From UHGV virus genome UHGV-0188207: 27,934 nucleotides of DNA. One strand, written 5' to 3'. The position numbers were made by a program, and so were the translations under genes. The notes below the pieces were generated by a model, which saw only the letters and a list, made by a program, of their open reading frames with translations, did not search any database and was not told the DNA's origin. This stretch comes from a virus. This document shows positions 496 through 17,046 of the stretch, one piece after another; within the stretch, counting starts at the first letter, position 1, and every line of letters starts with the position of its first letter.

Positions 496-525
496 TGATC
501 CTACCCACGTAATATGGACACAGGC

Positions 526-1392
526 CTAAGCGAGGTTCTTGTTTTCAAATTGTTCCGGACTGAGGCCGCCACACCAACTGTGCCGCCGCCACCGATTGTA
601 ATCACATTCGATATAATTAAACACCGTTGCCCGCATTATTTCCCGGCTGATAAAGTGTTCTCCATGGATACATTCCACTTTCAGCGAATGAAAGAAGCTT
701 TCCACGCAGGCATTATCGTAGCAGCAACCTTTTGCGCTCATACTTCCACGCAGATTATGCCGCTTCAGTTGCGCCTGATAATCTGCTGAACAGTACTGGC
801 CTCCACGGTCCGTGTGAACGATAACGTTCCGGGGCCTCTTACGCCGCCACAGCGCCATCTGCAGGGCATCGCAGGCCAGTTGCGCCGTCATGCGTGGCGA
901 CATTGACCAGCCAATAACGGCACGTGACCACAGGTCAATGACCACTGCCAGATACAGCCAGCCTTCATCTGTACGTAAGTACGTGATGTCTCCTGCCCAC
1001 TTCTGGTTCGGGCCACTGGCGTAAAAATCCTGCTCCAACAGATTTTCTGACACAGGCAGGCCGTGTGCGCGGTAGCTGACCGGGCTGAACTTCCGGGAGG
1101 CCTTTGCCCTCAGTCCCTGACGGCGCAGGCTTGCCGCCACGGTTTTTACGTTAAAGGGGTAACCCTGAGCACGCAGTTCATCCGTCAGGCGTGGGGCACC
1201 GTAACGCTGTTTTGACCGGGTAAAAGCCGCGAGGACAACGCTGTCGCAGTGTTGGCGGAACTGCTGACGCGTGCTTATCCTTGTCCGCCGCTGACACCAC
1301 GTATACCAGCCGCTGCGGGCCACCCGGAGCACGCGGCACATTGCTTTGATGCTGAACTCAGCCTGATGTTTTTCAATAAAGACATACTTCAT
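526..1392 (-). CDS. insF: IS3 transposase OrfB (DDE catalytic domain)
   Basis: 288-aa [39 protein letters not shown]...; IS3-family OrfB recognised from sequence; overlaps orfA in the -1 frame. Confidence 0.9.
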
Positions 1393-1688
1393 TTCAGGCG
1401 CTTCGCGAAGTATGTCGCGGCCTTTTGGAGGATAGCCAGCTCTTCATCCCGTTCTGCCAGCTGGCGTTTGAGACGTGCAATCTCGGTAGACATCTCCAGT
1501 TCACGTTCAGAAGACGTCTGCTGATTTTGCTGTTTACTGCGCCAGTTGTAGAGTTGTGATTCATACAGGCTGAGTTCACGGGCTGCGGCAGTAACACCGA
1601 TGCGTTCAGCAAGCTTCAGGGCTTCACTGCGAAATTCAGGCGAATGCTGTTTACGGGGTTTTTTACTGGTTGATACTGTTTTTGTCAT
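1389..1688 (-). CDS. insE: IS3 transposase OrfA (HTH DNA-binding subunit)
   Basis: [55 protein letters not shown]...; start taken at the internal ATG of the 102-aa track ORF. Confidence 0.85.
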
Positions 1689-1754
1689 GTGAGTCACCTC
1701 TGACTGAGAGTTTACTCACTTAGCCGCGTGTCCACTATTGCTGGGTAAGATCAC

Positions 1755-1963: not shown

Positions 1964-2632
1964 TTAACTTTCTGCCGCCAAAGTGCCGCCACTGCATTTG
2001 TCGCCTAAACGCCTATTCGAAACGATTAATCTCTCGGCGATCTTAATCTTGGAGAGCTTATCTAGGCAGATAAAGCATATTGCTACTCCCGATACCACAA
2101 AATAGCTGCTTAAACCAAAGTATTGCCAAGTAGTTAGATGGTTTATCTTCTCCATCATCTTAGCACTTACTACAACAGAATAACTAAAAGGAAGTGCTAC
2201 GATGAGACTGCTCATGAAGTAAATTAGAGTTGTTATGAATTTTATTAATTTTCTATATATGCTGTATTTATATCTTTTTTTATTCCATGCGAATATTTCT
2301 TTATGGGTGGTAATGGAAATTAGACTTTGACATTTGGAATAATTATCTATATCGCTAACGGGGTTTGTTGTGTTGAGTAATATTAATCTTTGTTTTTTTG
2401 TCAATGTGTTATCTTTGGTTAATGCAGCAATGCCGTAATCTTCCGCCAGTTTTTTGAAGGTCGGATCTTCACTGCTTTTATACATCTGATATGAAAATTC
2501 GCTAATGTTTTTACGTGATGTGAATAGTTTATCTTTTTTATAAGTCCACCCTGTTTTAAGCCCTAATAAGGATATAATGGCAGATAGGGAAGGGAATAAT
2601 ATTTTTATAAGTAACTCTAGTTCGCTATTCAT
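1964..2632 (-). CDS. Hypothetical membrane protein (about 3 predicted TM segments), AT-rich cargo gene between integrase and att
   Basis: 222-aa ORF; start ATG 10 bp after the int stop with a GAGGT RBS; hydrophobic stretches LIKILFPSLSAIISLLGL, LIKFITTLIYFMSSLIVALPF, YFGLSSYFVVSGVAICFICL; the 3' end runs into GC-richer att-flanking DNA, so the true stop is uncertain. Confidence 0.5.
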   Translation of the reverse strand: MNSELELLIKILFPSLSAIISLLGLKTGWTYKKDKLFTSRKNISEFSYQMYKSSEDPTFKKLAEDYGIAALTKDNTLTKKQRLILLNTTNPVSDIDNYSKCQSLISITTHKEIFAWNKKRYKYSIYRKLIKFITTLIYFMSSLIVALPFSYSVVVSAKMMEKINHLTTWQYFGLSSYFVVSGVAICFICLDKLSKIKIAERLIVSNRRLGDKCSGGTLAAES

Positions 2633-2642
2633 AAATTACTAC

Positions 2643-3659
2643 TTACCTCAAATTAAATAAAGGATTTTTAGTTACGGCATCTTCTAAATGGTCTGGGGCG
2701 AAGTGTGCATAGACCATGGTCATTTTTATATCTGAATGTCCTAGGATATCCCGCAAAACCAATATGTTTCCACCATTCATCATAAAATGGCTAGCGAATG
2801 TATGACGCAGAACGTGAGTACATTGACCCTCTGGCAGATCGATACCAGCCCGCTTTACTGCACGCTCAAAGGCTTTTCTGCATGGGGTGAATAACTTCCC
2901 CCTATTCTTAGGCAGTTCTTCATATAAATCCTTAGAAATAGGCACAGTTCGGTTTTTCTTGCCTTTGGTCTTGGTATAAGTGATACGGTATTTTGATACC
3001 TGATGACTCTGCAGGTTTTCGGCTTCGCTCCAGCGTGCGCCGGTGGCCAGGCATATTTTTGCAATCAAAAGCAGGCTGGAGCTTTGAGAATCGGCGCAGG
3101 CATCCAGCAGACGTTTAATTTCTTCCGGGGTCAGGAACGCCAATTCACTCTCAGCAATTTTAAATGTTGGCAGCCCAGCAAGCGGGTTGGGGGCTGACCA
3201 GTGGCCCAGCTTTTTCAGTGTACCAAAAACAGATGATAGATTGCGCTGTTCAAGGTTTACCGTGCGGGGCTTAACGGGCGACATAAACGTGCCATCTTCA
3301 TTTCGTACTTCACCTTTTAACCGTGCTTCGCGGTATTTCGTAAAGTCACCGGCTGTCAGTTCTGAGGCGATGGGGTCGCCTAGACCATTACAGATAATTC
3401 TAAGTTTCGCCATGAGGCGCTTGGGGTCTGCGAGTGTCTGACCATACAGGGAATACCAAAGCTCAATTAATTCTGATAGGTGTCGCCGATCATCCTTTTC
3501 TCCTAACCACGGTTTTTTGTTCACTTCTTCCATTGTGAAGCTTTCAAATGCAATGGCTTCGCCTTTGGTAGCAAATTGCTTACGCACGCGCTTACCATTG
3601 CGTCCATTGGGATAGCACTCACACAACCATTTTCCGTTCGGCTGTTTTCTGATGGTCAT
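2643..3659 (-). CDS. int: Tyrosine integrase, P2/186 family
   Basis: 338-aa ORF with C-terminal catalytic region HVLRHTFASHFMMNGGNILVLRDILGHSDIKMTMVYAHFAPDHL (R..H..R..Y tyrosine recombinase signature); adjacent to the att core. Confidence 0.9.
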   Translation of the reverse strand: MTIRKQPNGKWLCECYPNGRNGKRVRKQFATKGEAIAFESFTMEEVNKKPWLGEKDDRRHLSELIELWYSLYGQTLADPKRLMAKLRIICNGLGDPIASELTAGDFTKYREARLKGEVRNEDGTFMSPVKPRTVNLEQRNLSSVFGTLKKLGHWSAPNPLAGLPTFKIAESELAFLTPEEIKRLLDACADSQSSSLLLIAKICLATGARWSEAENLQSHQVSKYRITYTKTKGKKNRTVPISKDLYEELPKNRGKLFTPCRKAFERAVKRAGIDLPEGQCTHVLRHTFASHFMMNGGNILVLRDILGHSDIKMTMVYAHFAPDHLEDAVTKNPLFNLR

Positions 3660-3662
3660 AAG

Positions 3663-4295
3663 TTAGAGGTTCTTGATTACTTTGACTGCACGTCCTACGA
3701 CTTCCACATCATCTACAGAACATTCAAATGAAGTGTCATCTTGGCTAACTACTATTTTGTTTCCGGGTATGCGCGCAATTTTGACGATGCTTTTAACTCC
3801 GTCCATATCGACTAACCAGAAGCCATTACTGACTTGTTTAACGGACGTATCCACTACAAAGCTATTATTAGCTGTTTTAACAAATAAAGCGTTGGATGAG
3901 TCACCATCGAGCAGGCTGCTATCAAGAAGAATTTCATCACTTGCCTGCAGTTCGCCGTTCTTCAGTTCAACACGTTTGATGCTAGGAGCAACGATCTTAG
4001 AAAGTGGTCTTACAGTGACGGGAGGTTCATTTTTGAGATTTGTTTCTTCGTTCTCACACGCATACATATCTCCTTGACCAGTAGCCAGCCATAGAAGGGA
4101 AGCTCCTGTTTCAAGGGCACATTGAATTACCCATTCGGCAGGAAAGCTATCCCTTAAGTATCTGTTAGCCATAGTGCTTTTGGATACTTCCAGATGTTCG
4201 CAGAGCTGCTGTCGTGAGCTGAAGTTGTAAGCCTTAATAAGCCTGTTAATTGCATCGCGCCCACCACTATCATTTCCCGCTTTGATTAAACTCAT
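3663..4295 (-). CDS. cI: Immunity repressor CI (186-like CI with HTH N-domain)
   Basis: ORF MSLIKAGNDSGGRDAINRLIKAYNFSSRQQLCEHLEVSKSTMANRYLRD...; 3-bp gap to int; divergent from the early lytic operon; start set at the ATG with a GAGG RBS. Confidence 0.7.
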   Translation of the reverse strand: MSLIKAGNDSGGRDAINRLIKAYNFSSRQQLCEHLEVSKSTMANRYLRDSFPAEWVIQCALETGASLLWLATGQGDMYACENEETNLKNEPPVTVRPLSKIVAPSIKRVELKNGELQASDEILLDSSLLDGDSSNALFVKTANNSFVVDTSVKQVSNGFWLVDMDGVKSIVKIARIPGNKIVVSQDDTSFECSVDDVEVVGRAVKVIKNL

Positions 4296-4306
4296 AATCA
4301 AACCTC

Positions 4307-4686: not shown

Positions 4687-5196
4687 ATGTTTGATTATAA
4701 GATTTCCAAACACCCGCATTTTGATGAAGCCTGTAGAGCTTTTGCACTTCGTCACAATATGGCGAAGCTGGCAGAACGTGCAGGAATGAATGTCCAGACA
4801 CTGCGAAACAAACTCAACCCAGATCAACCGCATCAGCTCAATGCGCCAGAAATCTGGCTGCTTACCGATCTGACTGAAGATTCAACGCTGATAGATGGTT
4901 TTCTGGCACAGATTCACTGCCTACCATGTGTACCGATTAATGAGGTGGCAAAAGAGAAGCTGCCGCATTACGTCATGAGTGCAACTGCAGAGATAGGGCG
5001 TGTCGCGGCAGGTGCGGTTTCTGGCGATGTAAAAACCAGTGCAGGCCGTCGTGATGCGATCAGCAGCATTAACTCTGTTACACGACTGATGGCGCTGGCT
5101 GCTGTTTCATTGCAGGCCCGTTTACAGGCTAATCCTGCGATGGCGAGTGCGGTTGATACCGTGACTGGCCTCGGTGCTTCATTCGGTTTGCTGTGA
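4687..5196 (+). CDS. cII: CII-like regulatory protein (186 CII family)
   Basis: 169-aa ORF (the size I recall for 186 CII) directly after the apl-like gene; N-terminal HTH-like region. Confidence 0.6.
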   Translation: MFDYKISKHPHFDEACRAFALRHNMAKLAERAGMNVQTLRNKLNPDQPHQLNAPEIWLLTDLTEDSTLIDGFLAQIHCLPCVPINEVAKEKLPHYVMSATAEIGRVAAGAVSGDVKTSAGRRDAISSINSVTRLMALAAVSLQARLQANPAMASAVDTVTGLGASFGLL

Positions 5197-6559: not shown

Positions 6560-6786
6560 TGGCTGATGCAATGGATCTCGTACAGCAGCGCGTTGAAGAA
6601 GAACGTCAGCGCCATATCCGTGCTGCCCGTGCCAAAACGCCGGGCGTGTCCCGCGTGCTTTGCATTGAGTGTGAAGCGCCAATTCCGCCAGCACGCCGCC
6701 GCGCCATTCCAGGTGTGCAGCTTTGCATTACCTGTCAGGAAATCGCAGAGCTGAAAGGCAAACATTACAACGGAGGTGCTGTATGA
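6559..6786 (+). CDS. TraR/DksA-family C4 zinc-finger protein
   Basis: 75-aa ORF with CIECEAPIP...CITCQ four-cysteine motif, as in small TraR/DksA-like proteins of P2-like phages. Confidence 0.7.
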   Translation: MADAMDLVQQRVEEERQRHIRAARAKTPGVSRVLCIECEAPIPPARRRAIPGVQLCITCQEIAELKGKHYNGGAV

Positions 6787-7640
6787 GCACCATCCTGAAA
6801 TGGGCGGGAAATAAAACCGCCATTATGTCCGAACTGAAAAAACACCTTCCTGCTGGCCCGCGACTGGTTGAACCTTTCGCGGGTTCCTGTGCTGTGATGA
6901 TGGAGACGGATTACCCCAGCTATCTGGTTGCGGATATTAATCCTGATTTAATCAACCTCTATAAAAAGGTTGCCGCTGATTGTGAATCGTTTATATCTCG
7001 CGCCAGAGTTTTATTTGAGATCGCAAACAGGGAGGTGGCTTATTACAACATAAGGCAGGAGTTTAATTACTCCACTGAAATTACTGATTTCATGAAAGCG
7101 GTATATTTCCTGTATCTCAATCGTCATGGTTACCGTGGATTATGTCGCTATAACAAGAGCGGGCATTTCAACATTCCGTACGGTAATTATAAAAATCCGT
7201 ATTTCCCTGAAAAGGAAATTCGCGCATTTGCAGAGAAAGCCCAGCGTGCAACGTTTATCTGCGCAAGCTTTGATGAAACGCTGGCGATGCTGCAGGTGGG
7301 GGATGTGGTGTATTGCGATCCGCCGTATGACGGTACGTTTTCCGGCTATCACACTGATGGTTTCACTGAAGATGACCAGTATCACCTGGCATCCGTTCTT
7401 GAACATCGGTCATCAGAAGGACATCCGGTCATTGTTTCTAACAGTGATACATCCCTGATCCGTTCGCTGTATCGCAATTTTACTCACCACTACATCAAGG
7501 CAAAACGCAGCATCGGTGTAGCAGCTGGTGAGAGTAAATCTGCAACAGAAATCATCGCTGTTTCCGGGCCGCGCTGCTGGGTGGGATTTGATCCTTCGCG
7601 TGGCGTGGATAGTTCTGCCGTGTACGGAGTGCGTGCATGA
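6783..7640 (+). CDS. dam: DNA adenine methyltransferase (Dam-like, D12 class)
   Basis: [18 protein letters not shown]...FAGSCAV...[11 protein letters not shown] (DPPY catalytic motif and FxGxG AdoMet motif); ATGA-coupled to flanking genes. Confidence 0.8.
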
Positions 7641-10051
7641 GCCATGCTGATATGAACAACTGCAGCGGCTTTAACGAGGTCGCCGCAGCATTCTCATGGA
7701 ACAGCCCGAAAAAGGCCATTAACCCTTATCTGGACCCGGCGGAAGTTGCGCCGGTTTCTGCGCTTTCAAACCTGATCACTCTGTACGCTACTGATAACGA
7801 GCAGGAACAACTGCGCCGCGAGGCACTGAGTGATCAGGTCTGGGAGCGTTATTTCTTTAATGAATCCCGTGATCCTGTCCAACGCGAAATGGAGCAGGAT
7901 AAGCTCATTAGCCGGGCAAAGATGGCGCATGAGCAGCAGCGTTTTAATCCGGACATGGTCATTCTGGCCGACGTCAACGCCCAGCCTTCCCATATCAGCA
8001 AGCCGCTGATGCAACGTATTGAATATTTCAGCAGCCTGGGCAGGCCAAAGGCTTATTCCCGCTATTTGCGTGAGACGATTAAGCCATGTCTGGAACGACT
8101 GGAGCATGTACGCGACAGCCAGCTATCTGCATCTTTTCGTTTTATGGCAAGCCATGAAGGGCTGGATGGTCTGCTGATCCTGCCTGAAATGAGTCAGGAT
8201 CAGGTGAAACGCCTGTCTACCCTTGTCGCTGCGCATATGAGCATGTGTCTTGATGCCGCTTGTGGTGATTTGTACGCCTCCGATGATGTTAAGCCAGAAG
8301 AAATCCGCAAGACATGGGAAAAGGTGGCTGCAGAAACCCTGCGACTGGATGTCATACCGCCTGCGTTTGAGCAACTCCGCCGGAAAAGAAACCGCCGCAA
8401 ACCTGTGCCCTATGAACTCATTCCGGGTTCGCTGGCGCGTATGCTGTGCGCCGACTGGTGGTATCGGAAATTATGGAAGATGCGTTGCGAATGGCGGGAA
8501 GAGCAGTTGCGTGCTGTCTGCCTGGTCAGCAAAAAAGCATCTCCCTATGTCAGCTATGAAGCCGTGATGCATAAACGTGAGCAGCGCCGTAAGTCGCTGG
8601 AGTTTTTCCGTTCTCATGAACTGGTGAACGAAGACGGCGACACGCTGAACATGGAGGATGTGGTAAACGCCAGCAGCAGCAACCCGGCGCATCGCCGCAA
8701 TGAGATGATGGCCTGTGTTAAAGGCCTGGAGCTTATCGCGGAAATGCGTGGTGACTGCGCCGTTTTCTACACCATCACCTGTCCGTCACGTTTCCATTCC
8801 ACGCTAAATAACGGCAGGCCAAACCCGACCTGGACCAACGCGACAGTAAGACAAAGCAGCGATTATCTGGTCGGCATGTTTGCTGCATTTCGTAAGGCTA
8901 TGCACAAAGCCGGGTTGCGCTGGTATGGCGTGCGGGTGGCTGAGCCGCATCATGACGGCACAGTTCACTGGCACCTGTTGTGTTTCATGCGTAAAAAAGA
9001 CCGCCGCGCCATTACTGCATTGTTGCGTAAGTTTGCCATCCGTGAAGACCGCGAGGAGCTGGGCAATAACACGGGGCCACGCTTTAAGTCTGAGCTGATA
9101 AACCCGCGCAAAGGAACGCCGACAAGCTACATTGCGAAATATATCAGTAAGAATATTGACGGGCGTGGTCTGGCTGGCGAGATCAGTAAGGAAACGGGTA
9201 AATCCCTGCGTGATAACGCTGAATACGTTAATGCCTGGGCGTCTCTGCATCGTGTTCAGCAATTCCGCTTCTTTGGCATTCCGGGGCGTCAGGCTTACCG
9301 TGAACTGCGATTGCTGGCTGGTCAGGCGGCAAGGCAACAGGGTGACAAAAAAGCAGGTGCGCCGGTACTGGATAACCCGCGCCTTGATGCCATCCTGGCT
9401 GCTGCTGATGCTGGTTGTTTTGCCACCTACATCATGAAGCAGGGCGGCGTACTGGTTCCCCGCAAATATCACCTCATCAGAACCGCTTATGAAATCAACG
9501 AAGAGCCAACCGCCTATGGCGATCACGGTATTCGTATTTATGGCATCTGGTCACCCATTGCAGAGGGCAAGATCTGCACTCATGCAGTGAAGTGGAAAAT
9601 GGTTCGTAAGGCCGTTGACGTTCAGGAGGCGGCAGCCGACCAGGGCGCTTGCGCCCCTTGGACTCGTGGCAATAACTGTCCCCTTGCTGAAAATTTGAAC
9701 CAACAGGAGAAAGATAAATCAGCTGATGGGGACCCCAGAACGGACATTACCCGCATGGATGACAAGGTGTTGCACGATTACCTGCACAGTATGAACAAAA
9801 AGGAGCGCCGGGAATTGGCTGCAAGGTTACGTCTGGTGAAACCGAAACGGCGTAGAGACTACAAACAGCGAATTACAGACCATCAACGACAGCAGCTCGT
9901 CTATGAACTGAAATCCAGAGGATTTGATGGCAGCGAGAAAGAGGTCGATTTACTCCTTCGCGGCGGCAGTATTCCGTCAGGAGCAGGCCTGCGTATCTTC
10001 TATCGGAACCAGCGTTTGCAGGAAGATGATAAGTGGCGGAACCTGTATTAA
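7637..10051 (+). CDS. A: Replication initiation endonuclease gpA (rolling-circle HUH nuclease)
   Basis: 804-aa ORF with the HUH motif [11 protein letters not shown] and the size/position typical of P2/186 gene A. Confidence 0.85.
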
Positions 10052-10144
10052 TTACGCTGGTTAACAATTCGTGCTCTTAATAATATCAGGCATATCAGGC
10101 TGATAAGCGTAAAAAAAACGTTTTACATCAGTAAGATTATTATA

Positions 10145-10164
10145 TACTGTAAATATAAACAGTG
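10145..10164. promoter_or_regulatory. LexA (SOS) box TACTGTAAATATAAACAGTG
   Basis: CTGT-N8-ACAG with an AT-rich spacer, close to consensus TACTGTATATATATACAGTA; overlaps a candidate promoter (TTTACA at 10122-10127) about 40 bp upstream of the ORF at 10206. Confidence 0.65.
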
Positions 10165-10205
10165 CTTATACATACAGTATTGCGTGTGGTGTCATAGGAG
10201 GAAAG

Positions 10206-10394
10206 ATGCAGGACTATTTTTTGGAGTCTTTGAAGCTCCAGCGCATTGATTTTTTTCTTAAGCTTGTAGCGGCTAGTGAGTGCGATGATGAAGAGAAGCG
10301 GCTTGCTATCCAGTGGGTTTCGGAGCTGACCGATGAGTTAATGGCGAAAATCCGTACTCATGAGTACAACCGTTCAATGGATCTCCCCGGTTAG
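10206..10394 (+). CDS. Small hypothetical protein downstream of the LexA box (candidate SOS-induced factor, Tum-like antirepressor position)
   Basis: 62-aa ORF with a strong AGGAGG RBS; the assignment is by position only. Confidence 0.4.
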   Translation: MQDYFLESLKLQRIDFFLKLVAASECDDEEKRLAIQWVSELTDELMAKIRTHEYNRSMDLPG

Positions 10395-10979
10395 GCTTAG
10401 GAACGTTGCTGGCGTTAGGACTTGATTCTGACGCTAGCAAGGTTGATCAACGAGCCATGCGAGGCGTTAGTCATGGGCAAAAAAATAGTAACTTCCAGAT
10501 TTTGCTTCGTGCCAGGTATTGAGTAGTTTTATCGCCAGAGGGGCTGTTAGCGCTCAAACTACTAATGGAGCCACACCTTAGATGAGTGATTTGGCTTAAG
10601 CTATGATTATATAGTTTCGCTGTACGGCGGCCTTGCTTTTTATTGAAGCGACCAGACTGGAACAACGGCGAAAGGAGACTAACGATACGCACCAGTTTTT
10701 TGAAAAGGTACAGTTATCTAGATTGGTTGCCAATTTTCGTTGAAACCTGACATACCATTAGGTCATTGCTTTAGAAAAATTAATACTTGATGTGAGAATT
10801 GCTTCAAAACATCTAGAATTAAAGTTTCTTTACTAGTATGCTTCATCACTTGGTCGTTGGGTTGAGTGCAAAAGCTAAGGCTGATGCCCAGTACGCTATC
10901 CGCATTATTGCCAGAGAACCGATTCGAAACCGGAATCTGGCAGAGCATGGGCGCAAGTGCTGGCTTCCCAACGGCCTCG

Positions 10980-11948
10980 TTATTTATAATATGCTGACTT
11001 CAAAACCACTCGTCTTTCAACCTGCTGTGATAGCATTACAGCGTTAGTCCAATCTTTTGGATACCTTATTTCTTCTATAACACGAATATAAGCACATACT
11101 TTATTTTTTCCCTCTCCTTTGGCATAAGTAACCTCTAGATTATTAAATTTCAATAAGTGCTCTCTTCTTTGGTAAGTAAAACAGCCGTAATCACGGACAT
11201 CAGAAGAAGTAATAGCATGAGTTGAAGGAAACCGAACTAGTAAATTTCTCAAGTAGGGAATAATGTCCAAACTCGTTGCTTTGTTTTCTTCTCTGCGACT
11301 CTTTCTGAACATATGTCTCCAACCCAGCCGTGTAAGCTCGATTTTCCCAAGCACCGGAGATGTGATTTCTTTCTGTTCAGAATAACGTTTTTTAACAAAC
11401 GCTCGCCGATTATTAAGTAGTGAGTTTCTTCTTCTTACATGGATTCCTTTTGCTCCAGTTTCACCTGCACGTACCATGGACATACAGCGAGCCAGGTCAA
11501 ACCGTGTGGCCGGAGTGATTAAGTGATATTCTCCATAAGTTTGGTTTTTAAGGGTAGTGTTTGGATGTATATAGGCCCAAAATGCTTTACGATTAGTTCT
11601 GTCAACCCAAACGACACATATATGGTGAGTTGTCCTTTTGGCTGCTTTTTTTGCGGCCGAATTTAATACAAAACCTTTCTCTAATAAATGACCATAAGTT
11701 GCCCCTGATTTAACTTGCGACAATATAAGCATTCTTTCTTTTGATGCCCATGGATGTTCGAAGGATAATATTAAATCTATTTTTGAATTGTCGTCTTCCC
11801 TGGAACCCCAGTGCCCCTCTCCTCTACAAGCAAGAATGAATTGACTCATTGCATAAGATTCGGCGTCACTGCCGTTAACTGAGTTAAACTGTCTTGTTTC
11901 TAGCACAGTTGGTATTGGTCGTGATGCAAGTAAACTGAAAGATCCCAC
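10980..11948 (-). CDS. Hypothetical protein in the AT-rich accessory region (candidate defence/cargo gene)
   Basis: 322-aa ORF with a GTG start and GGAGA RBS; low GC compared with the phage core; possible nuclease-like D...QxK pattern (KIDLILSFEH...LSQVKSG), which is very weak evidence. Confidence 0.55.
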   Translation of the reverse strand: MGSFSLLASRPIPTVLETRQFNSVNGSDAESYAMSQFILACRGEGHWGSREDDNSKIDLILSFEHPWASKERMLILSQVKSGATYGHLLEKGFVLNSAAKKAAKRTTHHICVVWVDRTNRKAFWAYIHPNTTLKNQTYGEYHLITPATRFDLARCMSMVRAGETGAKGIHVRRRNSLLNNRRAFVKKRYSEQKEITSPVLGKIELTRLGWRHMFRKSRREENKATSLDIIPYLRNLLVRFPSTHAITSSDVRDYGCFTYQRREHLLKFNNLEVTYAKGEGKNKVCAYIRVIEEIRYPKDWTNAVMLSQQVERRVVLKSAYYK

Positions 11949-12021
11949 TTATAGTTCTCTCCAAAAAATTGCATAATCTTGAACGCTAAAAAATAGTATA
12001 CAAACTAAAGTATTTTTTCAT

Positions 12022-12240
12022 TTAATTCAATGTATTGGCTAAAATTAAGACATTTATAGCTATATGTACTAGATAACATAGCGTTGTTTTCCTTTTGAAA
12101 TCTCTTCTTGTGGTAACACAACAGTATTTACTCAAGTAGTTTGTCACTGCATGGGGAGATTTTGCTATGTCCGCGGCATCATACAGATGCGATAGATTTT
12201 CAGCATGACCTTGGGTAGCAAATCTGTAGGTATCATCCAT
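12022..12240 (-). CDS. Possible small ORF upstream of the 322-aa gene (uncertain)
   Basis: 72-aa ORF on the same strand 73 bp upstream of the 322-aa gene; marginal RBS spacing. Confidence 0.25.
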   Translation of the reverse strand: MDDTYRFATQGHAENLSHLYDAADIAKSPHAVTNYLSKYCCVTTRRDFKRKTTLCYLVHIAINVLILANTLN

Positions 12241-12385
12241 TGCACCTCAAAGTAACTCTGGTGCATACCTATGCTGCATGAAAATGAATGATCGCTAGTG
12301 GATCGTTTATGTCGAAGCCTGCCAGTTCTGACGGGCTTTTGCTTATGTTATGCAACTGCATGAAAACCACTACACAAAGCGGGCA

Positions 12386-12404
12386 GGCGTGGCGGGGATA
12401 CGAG
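12386..12404. other. Candidate cos (cohesive end) core GGCGTGGCGGGGATACGAG
   Basis: First 13 nt GGCGTGGCGGGGA match the 186/P2 cos 19-mer as I recall it (GGCG[T/A]GGCGGGGAAAGCA[T/C]); the 3' six positions diverge. Confidence 0.4.
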
Positions 12405-12556
12405 CGCGCGCTAAGTCATATAAGAGTTATATATTGATTTGATTGCTGGACATGCATACAGTATCGCTCTATCATCTAATAAATCTTAGAGTATTTGACA
12501 ATGTTTGGATAAAATGGAACCTAACTTATTCATAATCCGCTAAACAGGGATGTCAG

Positions 12557-13471
12557 ATGCCATACCAATTGGTAGAGCTTAGCCCCGTAGCTAACGATCT
12601 TGAACAGTTAGGAACCAAAGAGAAGTTTTGGTTCTATTTCTCCGATGACACTGTAAATTTGCAGTTGTTTAAGTACTCTAGGCCAGGTACTGGCGAGCAT
12701 TGGTCTGAAAAGTGTGCTGCTGAGTTATGTCATTTGCTTAACATTCCACATGCTAGCTATGATTTGGCGCGATACAATGGTCGATTCGGTGTGGTGACTC
12801 AGAATATCATTCCATCTGGTTTCCGGATGGTAATGGGAAATGAAGTGCTTCACAGTTCGACATTCGATTATCCTGGGCCTTTACAAGCCGGGGAAAAGCC
12901 GGTAAGGGTCAGAGAACACACTGTCACAAGGGTATTGGGTTGTTTGGATAGGGAATCTATCAAGCCTCCTCCGAGTGTATATGATCTAACCGGGCTAAAT
13001 GCAGCAGATGTATTTTGTGGATATTTGATGCTCGATGCACTTGTGAGTAATCAAGATCGCCATCATGAAAATTGGGCGATCATGCTTAACAATGAAACTG
13101 GTGAGCAGTTTTTGTGTCCAACATACGATCATGCCGCTAGTTTAGGAAGGGAGATGTTAGATGATGAGCGTAACGAACGGCTTAATACTAAAGATAAAAA
13201 TCGACAAATCCCATGTTTTGTAAGAAAAGCTCGCTCTGAGCTATTCAAAGCAAAAACTGATAAAAAGCCCTTGCTGACCGTTGAAGCATTTCAACATGCA
13301 GTTGAAGGGAGAGTTGCCGCTCGCGACCATTGGTTAGGTAAGTTGAGCGTTTTAACAGAAGATTCCATTACAGATGTGTTTAACCAAGTGCCTTCATCGT
13401 GTATATCCGACAGTGCACGTAGATTTGCAACGTTAATGGTAATGGAAAATCGCAGAAGGTTACTAGAATGA
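12557..13471 (+). CDS. HipA-family (HipT-like) Ser/Thr kinase core lacking the HipA N-terminal subdomain
   Basis: 304-aa ORF with LGTKEKF (cf. HipA GAQEK loop), DALVSNQDRHHENW (catalytic loop, cf. HipA GATDGHAKNF) and CPTYDHAAS (cf. HipA PFYDIIS); AGGGA RBS; motif comparison from memory only. Confidence 0.6.
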   Translation: MPYQLVELSPVANDLEQLGTKEKFWFYFSDDTVNLQLFKYSRPGTGEHWSEKCAAELCHLLNIPHASYDLARYNGRFGVVTQNIIPSGFRMVMGNEVLHSSTFDYPGPLQAGEKPVRVREHTVTRVLGCLDRESIKPPPSVYDLTGLNAADVFCGYLMLDALVSNQDRHHENWAIMLNNETGEQFLCPTYDHAASLGREMLDDERNERLNTKDKNRQIPCFVRKARSELFKAKTDKKPLLTVEAFQHAVEGRVAARDHWLGKLSVLTEDSITDVFNQVPSSCISDSARRFATLMVMENRRRLLE

Positions 13472-14208
13472 CTAATACAAACTCCGTTTACGTCGCATGG
13501 CAGGCACCAGATACCAGAGACTGGCATGTTGTTGGTAACTTGCAAGAGCGCAAATCGGGGTATGTTTTCAGGTATACCAAAGGTGCTCTTAAATCTACTA
13601 AATTTACAAAGTTTAGCGGCATGAGTGATGTTCGTGAAACTTATGTTTCGGAAGAATTGTTTCCTCTTTTTAAAAATCGCCTTTTATCACCGAGACGTCC
13701 AGAGTATCCGAGTTTCATTAAATGGCTTGGATTTGAAGAAGATAAGGTAAATCCTATCGATATTCTTGCTCGCTCGGGAGGCTTACGAAGCACTGATCAG
13801 CTGCAGATTTTCAAAAAAATTGATGTTGATTCTGATGGTAACTTTGAGCATTTTTTCTTCTTACATGGACTTGGTTACTTAAATAGCTTAGCTAATGCTC
13901 GTGTATCTGAATTGAAACCGGGGCAAATTTTGCGTCTTTGCTTGGATCTTCAAAATGAATACGATGGGGATGCTGTTGTCGTTCGTGCAGATAAACCAGC
14001 TGAAATCGTTGGTTACTGCCCTAGGTATTTAAGTAATGATATCAAGAAGATGTTATTGGATGATCCAAAATCAATCACTTTAACGGTCGAAAAGATTAGC
14101 GATGATGCTCCTCATAACTATCGGTTATTATGTAAATTATCAGGAGTACTAAGCCAAGCCTGTCAATCGACGCTGATTCCTCAGGATGAGTTTGAACCTA
14201 TTGAGTAA
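13468..14208 (+). CDS. Protein with C-terminal HIRAN-like domain and an N-terminal region resembling the HipA N-subdomain (HipS-like)
   Basis: 246-aa ORF, ATGA overlap with the kinase gene; C-terminal DGDAVVVRADKPAEIVGYCPRYLSNDIKKML resembles the HIRAN signature; N-terminal FPLFKNRLLSPRRP / NPIDILARSGGLRSTD resemble HipA FNFFDNLLPDSP / FDLLSEIGRDSVG. Confidence 0.5.
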   Translation: MTNTNSVYVAWQAPDTRDWHVVGNLQERKSGYVFRYTKGALKSTKFTKFSGMSDVRETYVSEELFPLFKNRLLSPRRPEYPSFIKWLGFEEDKVNPIDILARSGGLRSTDQLQIFKKIDVDSDGNFEHFFFLHGLGYLNSLANARVSELKPGQILRLCLDLQNEYDGDAVVVRADKPAEIVGYCPRYLSNDIKKMLLDDPKSITLTVEKISDDAPHNYRLLCKLSGVLSQACQSTLIPQDEFEPIE

Positions 14209-14211
14209 ATG

Positions 14212-14242
14212 AAGAAAAGCCACCAAACGGTGGCTTTTCTTA
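14212..14242. terminator. Bidirectional hairpin terminator between the convergent HIRAN-protein gene and the portal gene
   Basis: AAAAGCCACC-aaac-GGTGGCTTTT stem-loop flanked by T-rich sequence on both strands. Confidence 0.5.
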
Positions 14243-15283
14243 TTATGGGACTATATCTAGCGAGTAGGTATTAAACTGTATCGCCTCCTTGCCAAGCCAA
14301 TCATTCATCTCCTGTAATCGCTTTTGTAGTGGCATTAGCTCATTTCGGACGAATACACGGCTTGCCTTTTCCACATCCCCAAACCCCCCAACATTATTCG
14401 GCATAATCCCCATCATTTGCGGCGGCACGCGGTGCGCTGCCATCATGTCATCCCGACTCACGTTCTTGATGTTAAGAAATTCATCCTTCGCCGCGACTTC
14501 TGACAATGGGATGATCTGAAGCCCGTCTTTTTTGCCGTTAGGTGAGTACATAAACAGGTTGCGGAAGTTGCCTGGACCTTTGGCGCTTTTCATCGCGTTG
14601 CGGAGGTTGTTCACATCCTCCTGATTCTGCGCGGCATCGGTCATGTACATGATGAAGCCTGCATGGCTGCCGTTGATGTAATACTTACGGCGGAACAACG
14701 TGGCGGACTCGTTGAGCAGGGCTGACGGAATGGCAGAAAGATAACCGGGCAGGCCGTAGATCTCTTGGTTAATATCCGGTTCCATCAGATGAAAGATGCT
14801 GCCTTTCGTGAACTGATACGGCTGCGTAGTCATGCCGTATTGCACAAACCAGTAGGTATCCAGGTCTAACCCGCGTCGGGTGTATTTTGCCAGCGCAGGT
14901 TCAAGGGCGATAACTTCACCGAAGCGGTTCGTGCGTTTCTCCAGGTAGGCGTTACCAAATACCAGATAGTCCTGCACAAAACGTGAAAAAGCCTGCTGGC
15001 TGAGCAGCGGGTGAGGGATATAGGTGCTGGTCAGAATGTTGCACTTTACTGCAATCGGTGAGCTGTGGTGTACGGCGGCGCGGAATGTTCGCGCCAGGCC
15101 GTCGAAACTCACAGGCGGCTCATACCAGCGGTCCATCTGTACGCATTCCACATAGTCCAGCAGTTCGCGACGGTCCAGAACAGGAACGGGATCGCCGAAG
15201 CTGAATGCTTCGGCTGAAGTCTGGCTTTTATGCTGGATCTGATTCATCGCCGCTGCGCGGTTTTTCTTACTCTTTCCCATCAA
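14243..15283 (-). CDS. Q: Portal protein gpQ
   Basis: 346-aa ORF; size, position (divergent from the O-N-M-L operon, next to terminase) and sequence family typical of P2 Q. Confidence 0.85.
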   Translation of the reverse strand: MMGKSKKNRAAAMNQIQHKSQTSAEAFSFGDPVPVLDRRELLDYVECVQMDRWYEPPVSFDGLARTFRAAVHHSSPIAVKCNILTSTYIPHPLLSQQAFSRFVQDYLVFGNAYLEKRTNRFGEVIALEPALAKYTRRGLDLDTYWFVQYGMTTQPYQFTKGSIFHLMEPDINQEIYGLPGYLSAIPSALLNESATLFRRKYYINGSHAGFIMYMTDAAQNQEDVNNLRNAMKSAKGPGNFRNLFMYSPNGKKDGLQIIPLSEVAAKDEFLNIKNVSRDDMMAAHRVPPQMMGIMPNNVGGFGDVEKASRVFVRNELMPLQKRLQEMNDWLGKEAIQFNTYSLDIVP

Positions 15284-17046
15284 AAAATCTCCACAATATT
15301 GCTGGTATTGGCGGATTCGCCCTGCAGCGGTTCGTTAAACAGTGCGTGCATCGTTGCCCATGCCAGATCGGCGTGGCTGGCTTCTTCGCTGCGGCTGGCT
15401 TCATAGGTCGGGCGGTTGCCACTGGCGGTGGTGGAGCGACGGATTGCCATAAAGGACTGCGCTATGTCGGTGTGTCCGGCGTCAAACTCCAGACGGCGGT
15501 GGCTGATAATGTCGTAGGCCTTGAGTACCAGGGCGTTTTTAACGTTGGGGTTGTAGACAAACTCCCGGACGGCAGGAAAGAACGCTTTCACGTTCTCGTA
15601 AACCCCGTGACCAACGCCGGTTGAGTCGATGCCGATGTAGGTCACGTTGTACTGCTCGGTCAGTTTTTTGATTGCGTCCGCCTGGGCACGGAAGTCCATC
15701 CCGCGCCACTGGTGACGCTCAAGAATGCGAAACTTACCGCCTGGCACGGCTGGCGGTGCCACCACCACGCATCCGGCGCTGTCGCCGTTCTGCGTACCTT
15801 TTGCCGGGTCATAACCGATCCACACTTCGCGCCAGCCAAATGGGCGCAGGGCCAGAGCATGAAAGTCGGTCCAGACTTCCCAACTGTCCACCATGCACGC
15901 CTGCAGCTCGCTGAGCGGAAACACGGACGCGAGATCGTCCACAAACTCGCACATCAGCAGGTTCTGGTATTCGTCCGGGCTGTACTCCATGCGCAACTGG
16001 TCAAGGTCGAACAGGTTACAGCCGCCGCGCACCGCATCTTCCACGGTGACTATCTGGCGGTATTGCCCGTCGGCGCACAGCTGGCCGGGGGCCAGATTGC
16101 TGTGGGACAGGTCGATGTCCACCTTATCGGCTTTGTTGCGCCCACGGTTGAACAGCGCACCGGACCAGAACGGATAAGCACTATGAGTCAGGCTGGATGG
16201 CGTGGAAAAATAGGTTTGTCGCCATTTCTTGTGAATAGCCATACCGGAAGCCACTTTGCGCAGCTCCTGGAATTTCGGTATCCAGAAATATTCATCCAGA
16301 TACAGGTTGCCGTGATAACTCTGGGCAGTGCGGGCATTGGTGCCGAGGAAGTAAAGCGTGGCCCCGTTAGGAAGCACCATCGGATCGCCTTTCAGCTCCA
16401 CCTCCACTTCTTTGGCGAAGTCGATGATGTACTGCTTAAAGACATGGGCCTGAGCCTTGCTGGCGGAAAGGAAAATCTGGTTACGCCCGGTTAGCAGGGC
16501 GTCAATCAGGGCTTCACGGGCAAAATAGAAGGTCGCGCCGATCTGGCGTGACTTCAGCAGGTTGCGGATGCGGTTGGTTTTTCCGGCTTCCCACCAGTGG
16601 CGCTGGTAGTTGAACATGGAGGAATGGAAGATTTCTTCCAGCTTCTCAATCTGTTCATCGGTGAAAACGTTCTTTTCCGGCTGACGGCGCGGGCCTTTGT
16701 TACGGTTGGCGACGTTAGGGTTTAAGTCGGCTTCGTTGCCGCCATTGTTAAACTTGCCGATCCGCGCGTGGCGTTCCGACTGGCGCGCCAGCAGGTCAAT
16801 CTCTTTGAAATCTTTCCCTTCTTTGTGCTCCTTCATAATGAGCTGGCAGTAGCGTGCGGCGGTGGTGAGCTGCATCTGATCCAGCGGCCCATAGTCACCC
16901 CACTTGTCGCGTTTTTTCCAGCTGTGAACGGTTGAAACTTTCTCTCCCAGCATTTCAGCAATGCGGGCGACGCGGTATCCCTGAAAGTACAGCAGCATGG
17001 CCTGCCGACGGGGATCGAGATCTGCGGGTGTCAGTGTGGTGTTCAT
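15280..17046 (-). CDS. P: Terminase large (ATPase) subunit gpP
   Basis: 588-aa ORF upstream of Q on the same strand, ATGA-coupled; P2 P-like. Confidence 0.85.
   Translation of the reverse strand: MNTTLTPADLDPRRQAMLLYFQGYRVARIAEMLGEKVSTVHSWKKRDKWGDYGPLDQMQLTTAARYCQLIMKEHKEGKDFKEIDLLARQSERHARIGKFNNGGNEADLNPNVANRNKGPRRQPEKNVFTDEQIEKLEEIFHSSMFNYQRHWWEAGKTNRIRNLLKSRQIGATFYFAREALIDALLTGRNQIFLSASKAQAHVFKQYIIDFAKEVEVELKGDPMVLPNGATLYFLGTNARTAQSYHGNLYLDEYFWIPKFQELRKVASGMAIHKKWRQTYFSTPSSLTHSAYPFWSGALFNRGRNKADKVDIDLSHSNLAPGQLCADGQYRQIVTVEDAVRGGCNLFDLDQLRMEYSPDEYQNLLMCEFVDDLASVFPLSELQACMVDSWEVWTDFHALALRPFGWREVWIGYDPAKGTQNGDSAGCVVVAPPAVPGGKFRILERHQWRGMDFRAQADAIKKLTEQYNVTYIGIDSTGVGHGVYENVKAFFPAVREFVYNPNVKNALVLKAYDIISHRRLEFDAGHTDIAQSFMAIRRSTTASGNRPTYEASRSEEASHADLAWATMHALFNEPLQGESANTSNIVEIF

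What the first reader, a model, noticed from the sequence alone, without database searches (positions are those of the whole stretch)
10980..12240. AT-rich minus-strand cargo gene (322 aa) with possible upstream small ORF in the gene A-cos accessory region
The region between replication gene A and the cos-like site is markedly AT-rich compared with the phage core. It carries a 322-aa ORF transcribed against the flanking phage operons, with its own RBS, and a possible 72-aa ORF upstream. In P2 the equivalent position holds the tin exclusion gene and is a known variable locus, so this is a likely slot for a superinfection-exclusion or defence gene. I could not assign a family.
Basis: partly seen in the sequence, partly recalled or inferred. 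Interest (0 to 1): 0.6.

Follow-up and report, generated by a model that had tools for sequence, protein, structure and literature searches.

The report
Prophage nuclease gene paired with small RNA
The flagged gene is a real, rare DNA-cutting enzyme carried as cargo in a prophage defence hotspot, and it always travels with a previously unannotated, conserved folded small RNA gene placed tail-to-tail against it, which suggests a nuclease held in check by its own RNA.

Summary
The 322-aa minus-strand ORF (10980-11948) is a real gene. It lies in a 1.78-kb insert (10471-12252) in the gpA-gpQ hotspot of a 186/Fels-2-like prophage. That insert is present in only 4 of 5,426 complete E. coli genomes.

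The protein has two domains:
- An N-terminal DUF4365/Mrr-like PD-(D/E)xK nuclease domain with invariant E44, D58 and Q78-x-K80. This is the same effector fold as the SPARDA nuclease.
- A very basic C-terminal domain found only in this architecture.

The upstream 72-aa ORF is not supported as a gene.

The main new result is a ~125-nt structured element at 10853-10979 on the + strand, abutting the stop codon and convergent with the gene.
- Covariance models find it at that position and orientation in 38 of 47 distinct family loci across five phyla or classes, and nowhere else in about 0.9 Mb searched.
- It shows strong compensatory covariation.
- It folds on the strand antisense to the nuclease (G·U 131 versus A·C 19; 30 of 31 copies).
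- It has lineage-appropriate promoters at its 5' end.
- It is absent from Rfam 15.

Homologues sit in a Vibrio integron cassette and beside Gabija, CBASS, AbiH and a type I restriction subunit. The most likely function is a nuclease toxin restrained by a dedicated small RNA, acting as abortive-infection defence. Expression and phenotype are untested.

The parts
10980..11948 (-). Nuclease gene, 322 aa, GTG start, TAA stop at 10980-10982
   Evidence: ORF. 179 homologues; the N-terminal 33 aa are conserved, so the long start is correct. AF2 model pLDDT 92.4, pTM 0.87.
11454..11894 (-). N-terminal DUF4365/Mrr-like PD-(D/E)xK nuclease domain (about residues 19-165); invariant E44, D58, Q78, K80
10983..11453 (-). 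Family-specific basic C-terminal domain (residues 166-322; motif GWRHMFRxxRxxxxK; pI 10.3)
10853..10979 (+). Conserved structured small RNA gene, convergent with the nuclease gene; its 3' end abuts the stop codon. Helices: P1 10853-10861/10967-10975; P1a hairpin 10868-10887; P2 10888-10894/10957-10963; P4 10908-10915/10936-10943; variable tip 10919-10933
   Evidence: Conserved non-coding DNA past the stop. RNAalifold -43.3 kcal/mol on this strand against -18.9 on the other. CM hits only here and only in this orientation. Covariation. G·U 131 versus A·C 19. 30 of 31 copies are more stable on this strand. MFE -49.8 kcal/mol, z -2.89. No Rfam family.
10792..10839 (+). Candidate promoter region of the small RNA in this copy (GTGAGA-16-TAGAAT at 10792-10819; TAGTAT at 10834-10839); weak
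   Evidence: Consensus scan and reading. In other loci the signal is positional. Proteobacteria: mean best sigma-70 score 7.77/12 with the -10 box ending 3-9 nt before the RNA start, against 5.3-6.35 in control windows. Bacteroidota: 9 of 9 have TAnnTTT[GA] ending 0-7 nt before the start.
11959..11962 (-). Shine-Dalgarno GGAG, 10 nt before the GTG start
   Evidence: Sequence read.
11988..12018 (.). 13-nt inverted repeat (5-nt spacer) in the nuclease upstream region; possible operator or promoter element
   Evidence: the repeat finder pair I4, 85% complementary. Not tested further.
10471..12252 (.). 1.78-kb insert relative to a sister prophage. It carries the nuclease gene, the RNA gene and their flanks
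   Evidence: blastn against L002: window 10399-10470 equals L002 4931-5003, and window 12253-15500 equals L002 5001-8250. The full segment is in 4 of 5,426 E. coli genomes.
12022..12240 (-). 72-aa ORF of the finding; judged not to be a gene
   Evidence: No family hits. No tblastn hit in phages. Called only within this insert. Upstream DNA is not conserved in L003. Not annotated in RefSeq.

Best explanation
The ORF encodes a two-domain nuclease. The N-terminal domain is a DUF4365/Mrr-like PD-(D/E)xK domain with an intact metal-site motif (E44, D58, Q78-x-K80). The C-terminal domain is strongly basic and occurs only in this architecture.

The gene forms a two-gene module with a dedicated ~125-nt structured small RNA. 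The RNA is transcribed from its own promoter on the opposite strand, and its 3' end meets the nuclease stop codon.

The module is mobile cargo. It is found in a P2-type prophage hotspot, an integron cassette, plasmids and defence islands.

Most likely it works as a toxin-antitoxin-like abortive-infection system.
1. In uninfected cells the abundant, stable folded RNA keeps the nuclease harmless.
2. It could do this by pairing with the fully complementary 3' end of the nuclease mRNA (type I-like), by binding the basic C-terminal domain (type III-like), or both.
3. When a phage shuts off host transcription or degrades RNA, the restraint is lost.
4. The nuclease then degrades nucleic acid non-specifically, as the DUF4365 effector of SPARDA does.

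Shown: gene, fold, catalytic motif, insertion, RNA structure, strand, position, promoters, co-occurrence.
Inferred: nuclease activity, toxicity, the restraining role of the RNA, the trigger, and the anti-phage phenotype.
For: Protein:
- High-confidence model.
- PD-(D/E)xK fold matches.
- Invariant E44/D58/Q78/K80, corresponding to the QxK active site mutated in SPARDA TmuRE (PMC10810196).
- The C-domain is restricted to this architecture and is basic.

RNA:
- It is conserved past the stop codon, with broken reading frames.
- It is more conserved than the gene DNA: 91.8% against 77.5% versus L003.
- All 39 CM hits in 531 kb lie tail-to-tail and antisense, with further hits. There is no hit in the sister prophage that lacks the gene.
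- 89.3% of cells are paired, against 71.6% in shuffles and 33-41% in slid controls. 34 of 43 pairs carry compensatory changes.
- The folding strand is fixed by G·U 131 versus A·C 19 and by an alignment-free test: 30 of 31 copies, p 1.3e-6.
- Promoters lie at the RNA 5' end: sigma-70 type in Proteobacteria and TAnnTTTG in 9 of 9 Bacteroidota.
- Divergent and distant family members keep an equivalent antisense-folding element whose sequence has changed. This indicates co-evolution of protein and RNA.

Context:
- P2 hotspot insert (PMC9122126).
- Integron cassette with a separate attC.
- Gabija, CBASS, AbiH and HsdR.
- PADLOC hits among neighbouring ORFs.
Against: - There are no expression data for either transcript and no phenotype.
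- The protein has no PADLOC, PHROG or NCBIfam hit. Its own DUF4365 score (12.9 bits) is below Pfam's cut-off.
- The RNA promoter in this E. coli copy is weak.
- Most covariation counts come from an alignment fitted to the model. A structure-blind MAFFT alignment of 25 copies recovers only helix P2.
- Neighbour defence hits were not compared with a background rate.
- There is no special complementarity of the RNA to its own translation start region, so a 5'-end antisense mechanism is unsupported.
- Known type I toxins are small peptides, and known type III antitoxins are upstream tandem repeats. Neither fits here.
Confidence: 0.5

Rival explanations
1. This is a selfish addiction (toxin-antitoxin) module. 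Its selected role is to stabilise the mobile elements that carry it (prophage, integron array, plasmid), not to defend against phage. The nuclease and RNA would work the same way, but the biological purpose differs.
For: It sits in a Vibrio chromosomal integron cassette array. Toxin-antitoxin cassettes are known to stabilise such arrays (bioRxiv 10.1101/2024.07.02.601686). It is also on plasmids and a chromid. The distribution is patchy and horizontally transferred.
Against: It repeatedly neighbours dedicated defence systems and sits in a hotspot shown experimentally to hold anti-phage genes (PMC9122126). The two roles are not mutually exclusive.
Confidence: 0.2
2. The nuclease is a stand-alone effector. 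The downstream element is only a 3' structure of the nuclease mRNA or a bidirectional terminator, with no function of its own.
For: The element closes with a GC-rich helix and is followed on the RNA strand by a U-rich run derived from the conserved ...YYK-stop codons. Both strands fold better than shuffles in this copy.
Against: Selection acts on the strand antisense to the mRNA. Internal loops are invariant across phyla. Promoters sit at its 5' end pointing towards the gene. Terminators do not normally keep 125 nt of sequence and covarying multi-helix structure across phyla.
Confidence: 0.1
3. The element acts as folded single-stranded DNA. It would be a recombination or mobility site, like an integron attC or an IS200/IS605-type hairpin, that moves the gene between elements.
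For: It is an imperfect palindrome of about 125 nt directly after an ORF. It folds on the strand opposite the gene, as attC bottom strands do. Family members occur as integron cassettes. DNA homology between loci ends sharply at its outer end.
Against: The terminal boxes are not RYYYAAC...GTTRRRY and vary between lineages (GTTGGG, GAGGG, AGAGAG). In the Vibrio cassette a separate VCR-like attC follows the element. Lineage-specific promoters at its 5' end argue for transcription. No recombinase is consistently adjacent.
Confidence: 0.05
4. The RNA is a positive cofactor (guide, scaffold or sensor) that the nuclease needs for activity, rather than a restraint.
For: The closest solved structures with this nuclease fold belong to an RNA-guided system, SPARDA. 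The C-terminal domain and the RNA are both family-specific and co-vary between clades.
Against: There is no Argonaute or APAZ partner. The variable part of the RNA is a hairpin tip, not a single-stranded hypervariable segment. The convergent, abutting arrangement is typical of antisense control.
Confidence: 0.12

Closest known systems
SPARDA effector (DUF4365/DREN-APAZ protein of short prokaryotic Argonaute systems; e.g. TmuRE, NbaSPARDA, XauSPARDA)
   Same: Same nuclease fold and the same D...QxK type active site. These are the best Foldseek matches (9qcc, 9vx6, 9jt2; E about 5e-7). In SPARDA the domain degrades DNA non-specifically once activated (PMC10810196).
   Different: There is no APAZ domain and no neighbouring Argonaute gene. 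The C-terminal domain is unrelated to any solved structure. The partner here is a dedicated folded RNA gene, not a guide loaded on an Argonaute.
Divona (Vibrio cholerae chromosomal-integron cassette with validated anti-phage activity; DUF4365 plus crr6 domain; bioRxiv 10.1101/2024.07.02.601686)
   Same: It is a single-protein DUF4365 nuclease and an integron-cassette cargo. Homologues are reported near integrases in E. coli. A member of the present family is likewise a Vibrio integron cassette.
   Different: No crr6 (PF08847) signal among the 25 top-ranked of 29 Pfam families matched by 120 members. No V. cholerae protein among the 120 best hits listed in each of two searches, nor among the ten distant relatives whose cluster names were looked up. 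The Divona sequence itself could not be obtained, so identity is not formally excluded. No RNA partner is described for Divona.
Type I toxin-antitoxin systems with 3'-overlapping antisense RNA on Bacillus prophages (bsrG/SR4, txpA/RatA; PMC3834814, PMC3531473)
   Same: Toxin gene and small RNA gene are convergent and meet at their 3' ends. They are carried on prophage-like elements, and the RNA has a defined secondary structure.
   Different: The toxin here is a 322-aa nuclease, not a small hydrophobic peptide. The RNA keeps covarying multi-helix structure and invariant loops across phyla, which is more than antisense pairing requires. Overlap of the transcripts is inferred from gene positions only.
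Type III toxin-antitoxin / abortive infection systems (ToxIN and relatives; PMC5772629, PMC3401426)
   Same: A nuclease toxin would be neutralised by a structured RNA that co-evolves with it, with an abortive-infection outcome when the RNA is lost.
   Different: The ToxN-type toxin is an endoribonuclease of another fold. ToxI is an array of tandem repeats upstream on the same strand. Here the RNA is single-copy, downstream and on the opposite strand.
P2 old and tin (cargo of the same gpA-gpQ hotspot; PMC9122126)
   Same: Same genomic slot and the same presumed purpose: exclusion of other phages by a lysogen.
   Different: There is no sequence or fold relationship. old is a TOPRIM/ATPase nuclease and tin targets T-even ssDNA-binding protein (own knowledge). 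Neither has an RNA partner.

Membership tests
DUF4365 (PF14280) / Mrr-like PD-(D/E)xK nucleases | Match to the Pfam model above its gathering score | tested here: inconclusive
   The window protein scores 12.9 bits, E 0.12, against a cut-off of 24.3. However, 91 of 120 family members match at E<=1 (best 9e-8), and precomputed PF14280 hits are recorded for several homologues.
DUF4365 (PF14280) / Mrr-like PD-(D/E)xK nucleases | Restriction-endonuclease-like alpha-beta-beta-beta-alpha-beta core | tested here: met
DUF4365 (PF14280) / Mrr-like PD-(D/E)xK nucleases | Catalytic acidic residues plus a (Q/E)xK motif | tested here: met
   E44, D58, Q78 and K80 are invariant in 120 sequences. The corresponding Q62/K64 are the proposed active-site residues (by sequence alignment) mutated to build the inactive TmuRE variant (PMC10810196).
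SPARDA (short Argonaute with nuclease-APAZ partner) | APAZ domain fused to the nuclease | tested here: not met
SPARDA (short Argonaute with nuclease-APAZ partner) | Adjacent short Argonaute gene | tested here: not met
   No Argonaute or PIWI domain among neighbours in any inspected locus.
Divona defence system | crr6 (PF08847)-like C-terminal domain | tested here: not met
   No PF08847 among the 25 top-ranked of 29 families matched by the 120 members at E<=1; the remaining four, matched by at most one member each, were not displayed. The paper used HHpred, which is more sensitive.
Divona defence system | Sequence homology to the V. cholerae N16961 cassette protein | not testable with these tools
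   The Divona sequence was not obtainable. Indirectly, no V. cholerae protein appears among the 120 best hits listed in each search or among the ten distant relatives whose cluster names were looked up.
Type I toxin-antitoxin (3'-overlapping antisense) | Small RNA gene convergent with the toxin gene and meeting it at the 3' end | tested here: met
   The RNA lies on the opposite strand, ending within a few nt of, or overlapping, the stop codon in every locus with a hit. Promoters are at its 5' end. The transcripts themselves were not observed.
Type I toxin-antitoxin (3'-overlapping antisense) | Toxin is a small hydrophobic membrane peptide | tested here: not met
   The protein is a 322-aa soluble two-domain nuclease-fold protein.
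Type III toxin-antitoxin (ToxIN-like) | Antitoxin is an array of tandem RNA repeats upstream of the toxin on the same strand | tested here: not met
   No tandem array in 10300-12500. The RNA is single-copy, downstream and on the opposite strand.
Type III toxin-antitoxin (ToxIN-like) | RNA binds and inhibits the toxin protein | not testable with these tools
   Only indirect evidence: a basic family-specific C-domain, and protein and RNA diverging together.
Integron attC site | Terminal RYYYAAC ... GTTRRRY boxes | tested here: not met
   The ends read GTTGGG...CCCAAC here and GAGGG/CCCTC or AGAGAG/CTCTCT elsewhere. A separate VCR-like attC follows the element in the Vibrio cassette.
Any Rfam 15 RNA family | Covariance-model match | tested here: not met
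   No match at E<=1 over 10000-14300, nor at the RNA element in ten other loci; the single sub-threshold hit there, sbrA at E 0.42, lies outside it.
Known or candidate defence proteins in PADLOC-DB 2.0.0 | HMM match | tested here: not met
   No families for the 322-aa protein at E<=0.1.

The most novel reading that the evidence does not exclude
The nuclease and the folded RNA form an obligate ribonucleoprotein. The family-specific basic C-terminal domain would read the invariant internal loops of the RNA, and the RNA would gate a DUF4365 nuclease. This would be a new kind of RNA-controlled immune or toxin module. It would be distinct from type I systems (peptide toxin, pure antisense) and from type III systems (repeat RNA, ToxN-fold RNase), and it would be conserved from Proteobacteria to Bacteroidota and Cyanobacteria.
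Probability: 0.3. Interest if true: 0.8.

Novelty: new variant of a known kind. Interest (0 to 1): 0.7.

Why it matters
The finding turns an anonymous 'hypothetical protein' in a well-studied prophage hotspot into a testable two-part system. One part is a nuclease of the fold used by SPARDA. The other is a new structured small RNA class that is not in Rfam.

If the RNA restrains or directs the nuclease, this adds a new design to RNA-controlled toxin and defence modules. It would also give the DUF4365 effector a second, Argonaute-independent mode of control.

The RNA lies where annotation pipelines place nothing or a spurious ORF. Similar partners of single-gene defence candidates may therefore be overlooked routinely.

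The module is small, about 1.2 kb, and occurs in E. coli, so the experiments are easy.

Tried and rejected
1. The 72-aa upstream ORF as a partner gene. Rejected: no homologues outside the identical insert and no conservation next to the nearest homologue.

2. A small protein gene downstream of the nuclease. Gene callers place a 70-aa ORF there in L004, and window ORFs of 61 and 69 aa overlap it. Rejected: the frames are broken by stops and indels between loci while the DNA stays conserved.

3. Integron attC. Rejected: wrong terminal boxes, and a separate attC is present.

4. Rfam family. None found.

5. Independent copies of the RNA on plasmids. None by blastn.

6. Pairing of the RNA with its own mRNA 5' region. 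No better than with unrelated loci, p 0.73.

8. Identity with Divona. Could not be tested directly. The indirect evidence is against it.

9. Experimental transcription start sites for the Cupriavidus metallidurans CH34 copy. The supplementary tables held for PMC7563307 were truncated before the chromid.

10. Structure-blind MAFFT alignment of 25 RNA copies. Only helix P2 was recovered, because variable hairpins misalign. Covariance-model alignment and alignment-free folding were used instead.
Full report
**Setting**

The window is a 186/Fels-2-like (P2-family) prophage. The genes identified are:
- integrase, 2643-3659 (-);
- CI repressor, 3663-4301 (-);
- CII, 4687-5196;
- Dam methylase, 6723-7640;
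- replication gene A, 7637-10051;
- portal gene Q, 14243-15283 (-).

Between A and Q the GC content falls from 52-63% to 38-43%. This gpA-gpQ interval is the published P2 hotspot. It holds old and tin in P2 and shows 1,650 gene arrangements among 18,150 E. coli loci (PMC9122126).

**The observation**

The 322-aa ORF is present at 10980-11948 on the minus strand, with a GTG start and GGAG 10 nt upstream. It is a real gene.
- A search of 5.8 billion proteins gave 179 relatives; the 120 listed are mostly about 320 aa, with E from 1e-87 to 1e-216.
- The first 33 residues are conserved (N22, N25, G26, D28, E30). The 289-aa RefSeq annotation therefore starts too late.
- The identical protein occurs in E. 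coli, Klebsiella grimontii and K. oxytoca. It is annotated as hypothetical or as 'DUF4365 domain-containing'.

The gene is an insertion.
- Only 4 of 5,426 complete E. coli genomes carry window 10400-12560, while 1,245 share the flank at 12253-12560.
- Against a sister prophage (L002) the window aligns up to 10470 and again from 12253. This defines a 1.78-kb insert, 10471-12252. A DinI-like gene present in the sister is missing here.
- Phage genomes share only the flanks.

The 72-aa ORF (12022-12240) has no support as a gene.

**The protein**

Sequence libraries give no match above a curated cut-off for this copy. Across 120 family members, however, PF14280 (DUF4365) is matched by 91 and PF18798 (LPD3) weakly by 67.

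An AlphaFold2 model is confident: pLDDT 92.4, pTM 0.87.

The N-terminal domain (about residues 19-165) has a PD-(D/E)xK fold.
- The best Foldseek matches are the DUF4365 nuclease subunits of SPARDA complexes, E about 5e-7.
- E44, D58, Q78 and K80 are invariant.
- In SPARDA TmuRE the equivalent Q62 and K64 are the proposed active-site residues, mutated to give an inactive control, and the enzyme degrades DNA non-specifically once activated (PMC10810196).

The C-terminal domain (residues 166-322) is distinctive.
- It models well on its own, pLDDT 92.1.
- It is very basic: pI 10.3, with 34 Lys+Arg in 157 residues.
- It carries the invariant motif GWRHMFRxxRxxxxK.
- A profile of this domain, searched against 1.84 billion representatives, found only 131 clusters. 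Almost all are 300-340-aa proteins with the domain in the same place.
- Nine of the ten distant relatives examined also match DUF4365 at the N-terminus at E<=0.1, five of them above Pfam's cut-off.

The architecture is therefore rare and fixed.

**The unexpected part: a conserved RNA gene**

DNA similarity between the window and loci encoding 61-82% identical proteins continues for about 125 nt beyond the stop codon. It ends sharply at about 10855. Over this stretch the reading frames are broken by stops and frameshifts. It is therefore conserved non-coding sequence.

The same pattern follows the stop codon in loci from Gamma-, Beta- and Alphaproteobacteria, Bacteroidota and a cyanobacterium. 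Compensatory changes are obvious, for example CCAGCAC/GTGCTGG, CCAGTGC/GCACTGG, CCAGTC/GACTGG and CCAGAG/CTCTGG.

*Folding strand.* RNAalifold on seven copies gave -43.3 kcal/mol and 43 pairs for the strand antisense to the nuclease gene, which is the window + strand. It gave only -18.9 kcal/mol and 28 pairs for the sense strand, where the broken pairs are A·C.

*Position and specificity.*
- A covariance model built from these seven copies found 39 matches in 531 kb of loci, searched on both strands. Every match lies directly after the nuclease gene and is antisense to it.
- Further matches have the same geometry in E. coli copies, Vibrio, Cupriavidus metallidurans CH34 and a Pantoea plasmid.
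- A second model found exactly one match in the whole window, 10853-10978 on the + strand. It found none in the sister prophage that lacks the nuclease.
- In total, 38 of 47 distinct family loci with downstream sequence have a model hit. Of the nine without, eight encode the most divergent proteins.
- Four of those eight carry a variant element that also folds better antisense, -22.8 against -8.8 kcal/mol.
- Two distant superfamily members, next to a type I HsdR and next to AbiH, have an element of about 130 nt. It is closed by a long helix that starts at the stop codon. Antisense z-scores are -3.9 and -4.1.

*Structure statistics on the model-based alignment (31 distinct sequences).*

| Measure | Observed | Shuffled | 3' partners slid |
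|---|---|---|---|
| Cells forming a pair | 89.3% | 71.6% (0 of 500 reach the observed value) | 33-41% |
| Covariation score | 0.429 | 0.168 | <=0.117 |

In addition, 34 of 43 pairs carry changes on both sides.

*Strand tests.*
- Within the pairs, G·U outnumbers A·C by 131 to 19.
- Without any alignment, 30 of 31 copies fold more stably on the antisense strand. The means are -46.4 and -38.1 kcal/mol, Wilcoxon p 1.3e-6.
- The window copy folds at -49.8 kcal/mol, z -2.89.

*Conservation and novelty.*
- The RNA is more conserved than the gene DNA: 91.8% against 77.5% versus L003, and 73.4% against 65.7% versus L004.
- Rfam 15 has no matching family.

*Evidence for transcription.*
- In 26 proteobacterial loci, the best sigma-70 match with a -10 box ending 3-9 nt before the element averages 7.77 of 12. 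In 13 control windows the average is 5.3-6.35. In 17 of the 26 loci the -35 box begins TTG.
- In all nine Bacteroidota loci, the phylum's TAnnTTT[G/A] box ends 0-7 nt before the element.
- The promoter changes with the host lineage but stays in place. This argues for an independently transcribed RNA running towards the nuclease gene.
- In the E. coli copy the candidates are weak: TAGTAT at 10834-10839, and GTGAGA-16-TAGAAT at 10792-10819.

*Not an attC.* The terminal boxes vary and are not RYYYAAC...GTTRRRY. In a Vibrio parahaemolyticus integron array the cassette contains the gene, then the element, then a separate VCR-like attC.

**Context**

Homologues lie in the following settings:
- next to Gabija GajA/GajB;
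- near a CBASS operon and a Fic gene;
- next to transposases and a giant helicase;
- in an integron cassette array;
- on plasmids and a chromid.

Among 118 neighbouring ORFs within about 3.7 kb in 32 loci, PADLOC models matched:
- mad3, four times;
- SoFic, PDC-S04, PDC-S24, Septu/PARIS-type ATPases and NERD-UvrD, three times each;
- GajA and GajB, twice each.

No background rate was computed. No other gene is consistently adjacent, so the module is the nuclease gene plus the RNA gene.

**Interpretation**

Three features are specific to this family and move together: the nuclease, its unique basic C-terminal domain, and the RNA.

The convergent, abutting arrangement means that any read-through of the nuclease mRNA is fully complementary to the RNA. 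This is the geometry of 3'-overlapping type I systems on Bacillus prophages (PMC3834814, PMC3531473).

The multi-helix structure conserved across phyla and the invariant loops go beyond what antisense pairing needs. They suggest recognition by a protein, as in type III systems (PMC5772629). Which of the two applies, or whether both do, cannot be decided here.

I found no special pairing of the RNA with the mRNA 5' end.

My best-supported reading is a nuclease toxin restrained by a dedicated small RNA and used for abortive-infection defence by the lysogen. The alternatives are an addiction role, a positive cofactor role, a mere terminator, and a DNA-level site. They are listed with their evidence in the rival explanations.

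**Comparison with known systems**

- It is not SPARDA: there is no APAZ domain and no Argonaute gene.
- It is probably not Divona, the validated V. cholerae DUF4365-crr6 cassette. There is no crr6 signal and no V. cholerae relative among the listed hits.
- It fails defining features of type I systems (peptide toxin) and of type III systems (upstream repeat array, ToxN-fold toxin).

I therefore rate it a new variant of a known kind: RNA-controlled toxin/defence modules with a DUF4365 effector.

**Limits**

- Nothing here shows expression, toxicity, RNA-protein contact or phage resistance.
- The covariation statistics rest mainly on a model-fitted alignment. A structure-blind alignment recovers only helix P2.
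- The alignment-free strand test and the promoter positions are independent of that alignment.

Noticed in passing
window 12557-13471 (+) and 13468-14208 (+): The rest of the AT-rich slot holds a two-gene candidate defence system. One gene is a HipA_C-like kinase (PADLOC PDC-M03A, E 2e-122; phrog_8728). It overlaps a HIRAN-domain protein (PDC-M03B, E 3e-93; phrog_8026). This pair, unlike the nuclease, is common in E. coli P2-like prophages: the flank is shared by 1,245 genomes.
   Followed up: partly
window 10385-10399, compared with L002 4698-4931: A DinI-like gene present at this point in the sister prophage (SCU-106) and in Fels-2/Klebsiella phages is missing from the window. The 62-aa phrog_698 gene (10206-10394) is kept.
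   Followed up: partly
window 11849-11948; L001 4581-5450: RefSeq annotates the nuclease as 289 aa, starting at the ATG at 11849. Other records use 311 or 322 aa. Conservation of the first 33 residues across the family shows that the 322-aa GTG start is the right one.
   Followed up: yes
window 14194-14272 (-): There is a sub-threshold Rfam match to BSnc120 (Brucella sRNA 120): 32.3 bits against a gathering score of 114, E 7.7e-5, full model length. It lies between the end of the HIRAN gene and the end of the portal gene. It may be a terminator or a cos-proximal structure.
   Followed up: no
window 1964-2632 (-): A second AT-rich stretch (33-35% GC at 2001-2800) lies next to the integrase. It holds a 222-aa ORF with no Pfam match, possibly another cargo gene at the attachment-site end of the prophage.
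   Followed up: no
window 5-1697: A GDP-mannose 4,6-dehydratase gene fragment (5-529) is followed by an IS3-family insertion sequence: an HTH_Tnp_1 ORF at 1389-1697 and an rve transposase at 526-1392, both on the minus strand. This lies at the left edge, just outside the prophage.
   Followed up: no
L015 8001-9072 and L024 4796-5867 (Nodosilinea sp. LEGE 06152): One cyanobacterial genome carries two copies of the nuclease gene, with downstream sequence identical over at least 230 nt including the RNA, on different contigs. This suggests recent duplication or carriage on a repeated mobile element.
   Followed up: no
L066 6500-7746 (Vibrio parahaemolyticus): In a chromosomal integron array the cassette contains the nuclease gene, the antisense RNA with its own promoter (TTGATA-17-GATAAT), and then a separate VCR-like attC. 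It is therefore a cassette that brings its own promoters, as toxin-antitoxin cassettes do.
   Followed up: partly
window 11988-12018: A 13-nt inverted repeat (AAAAAATAGTATA / TAAAGTATTTTTT) lies 40-70 nt upstream of the nuclease start codon. It could be an operator or part of the promoter.
   Followed up: no
L004 9046-9258; window 10763-10948 (-) and 10838-11047 (+): Gene callers and ORF lists place small 'proteins' (61-70 aa) over the RNA element. These are almost certainly false calls caused by the conserved non-coding sequence.
   Followed up: yes
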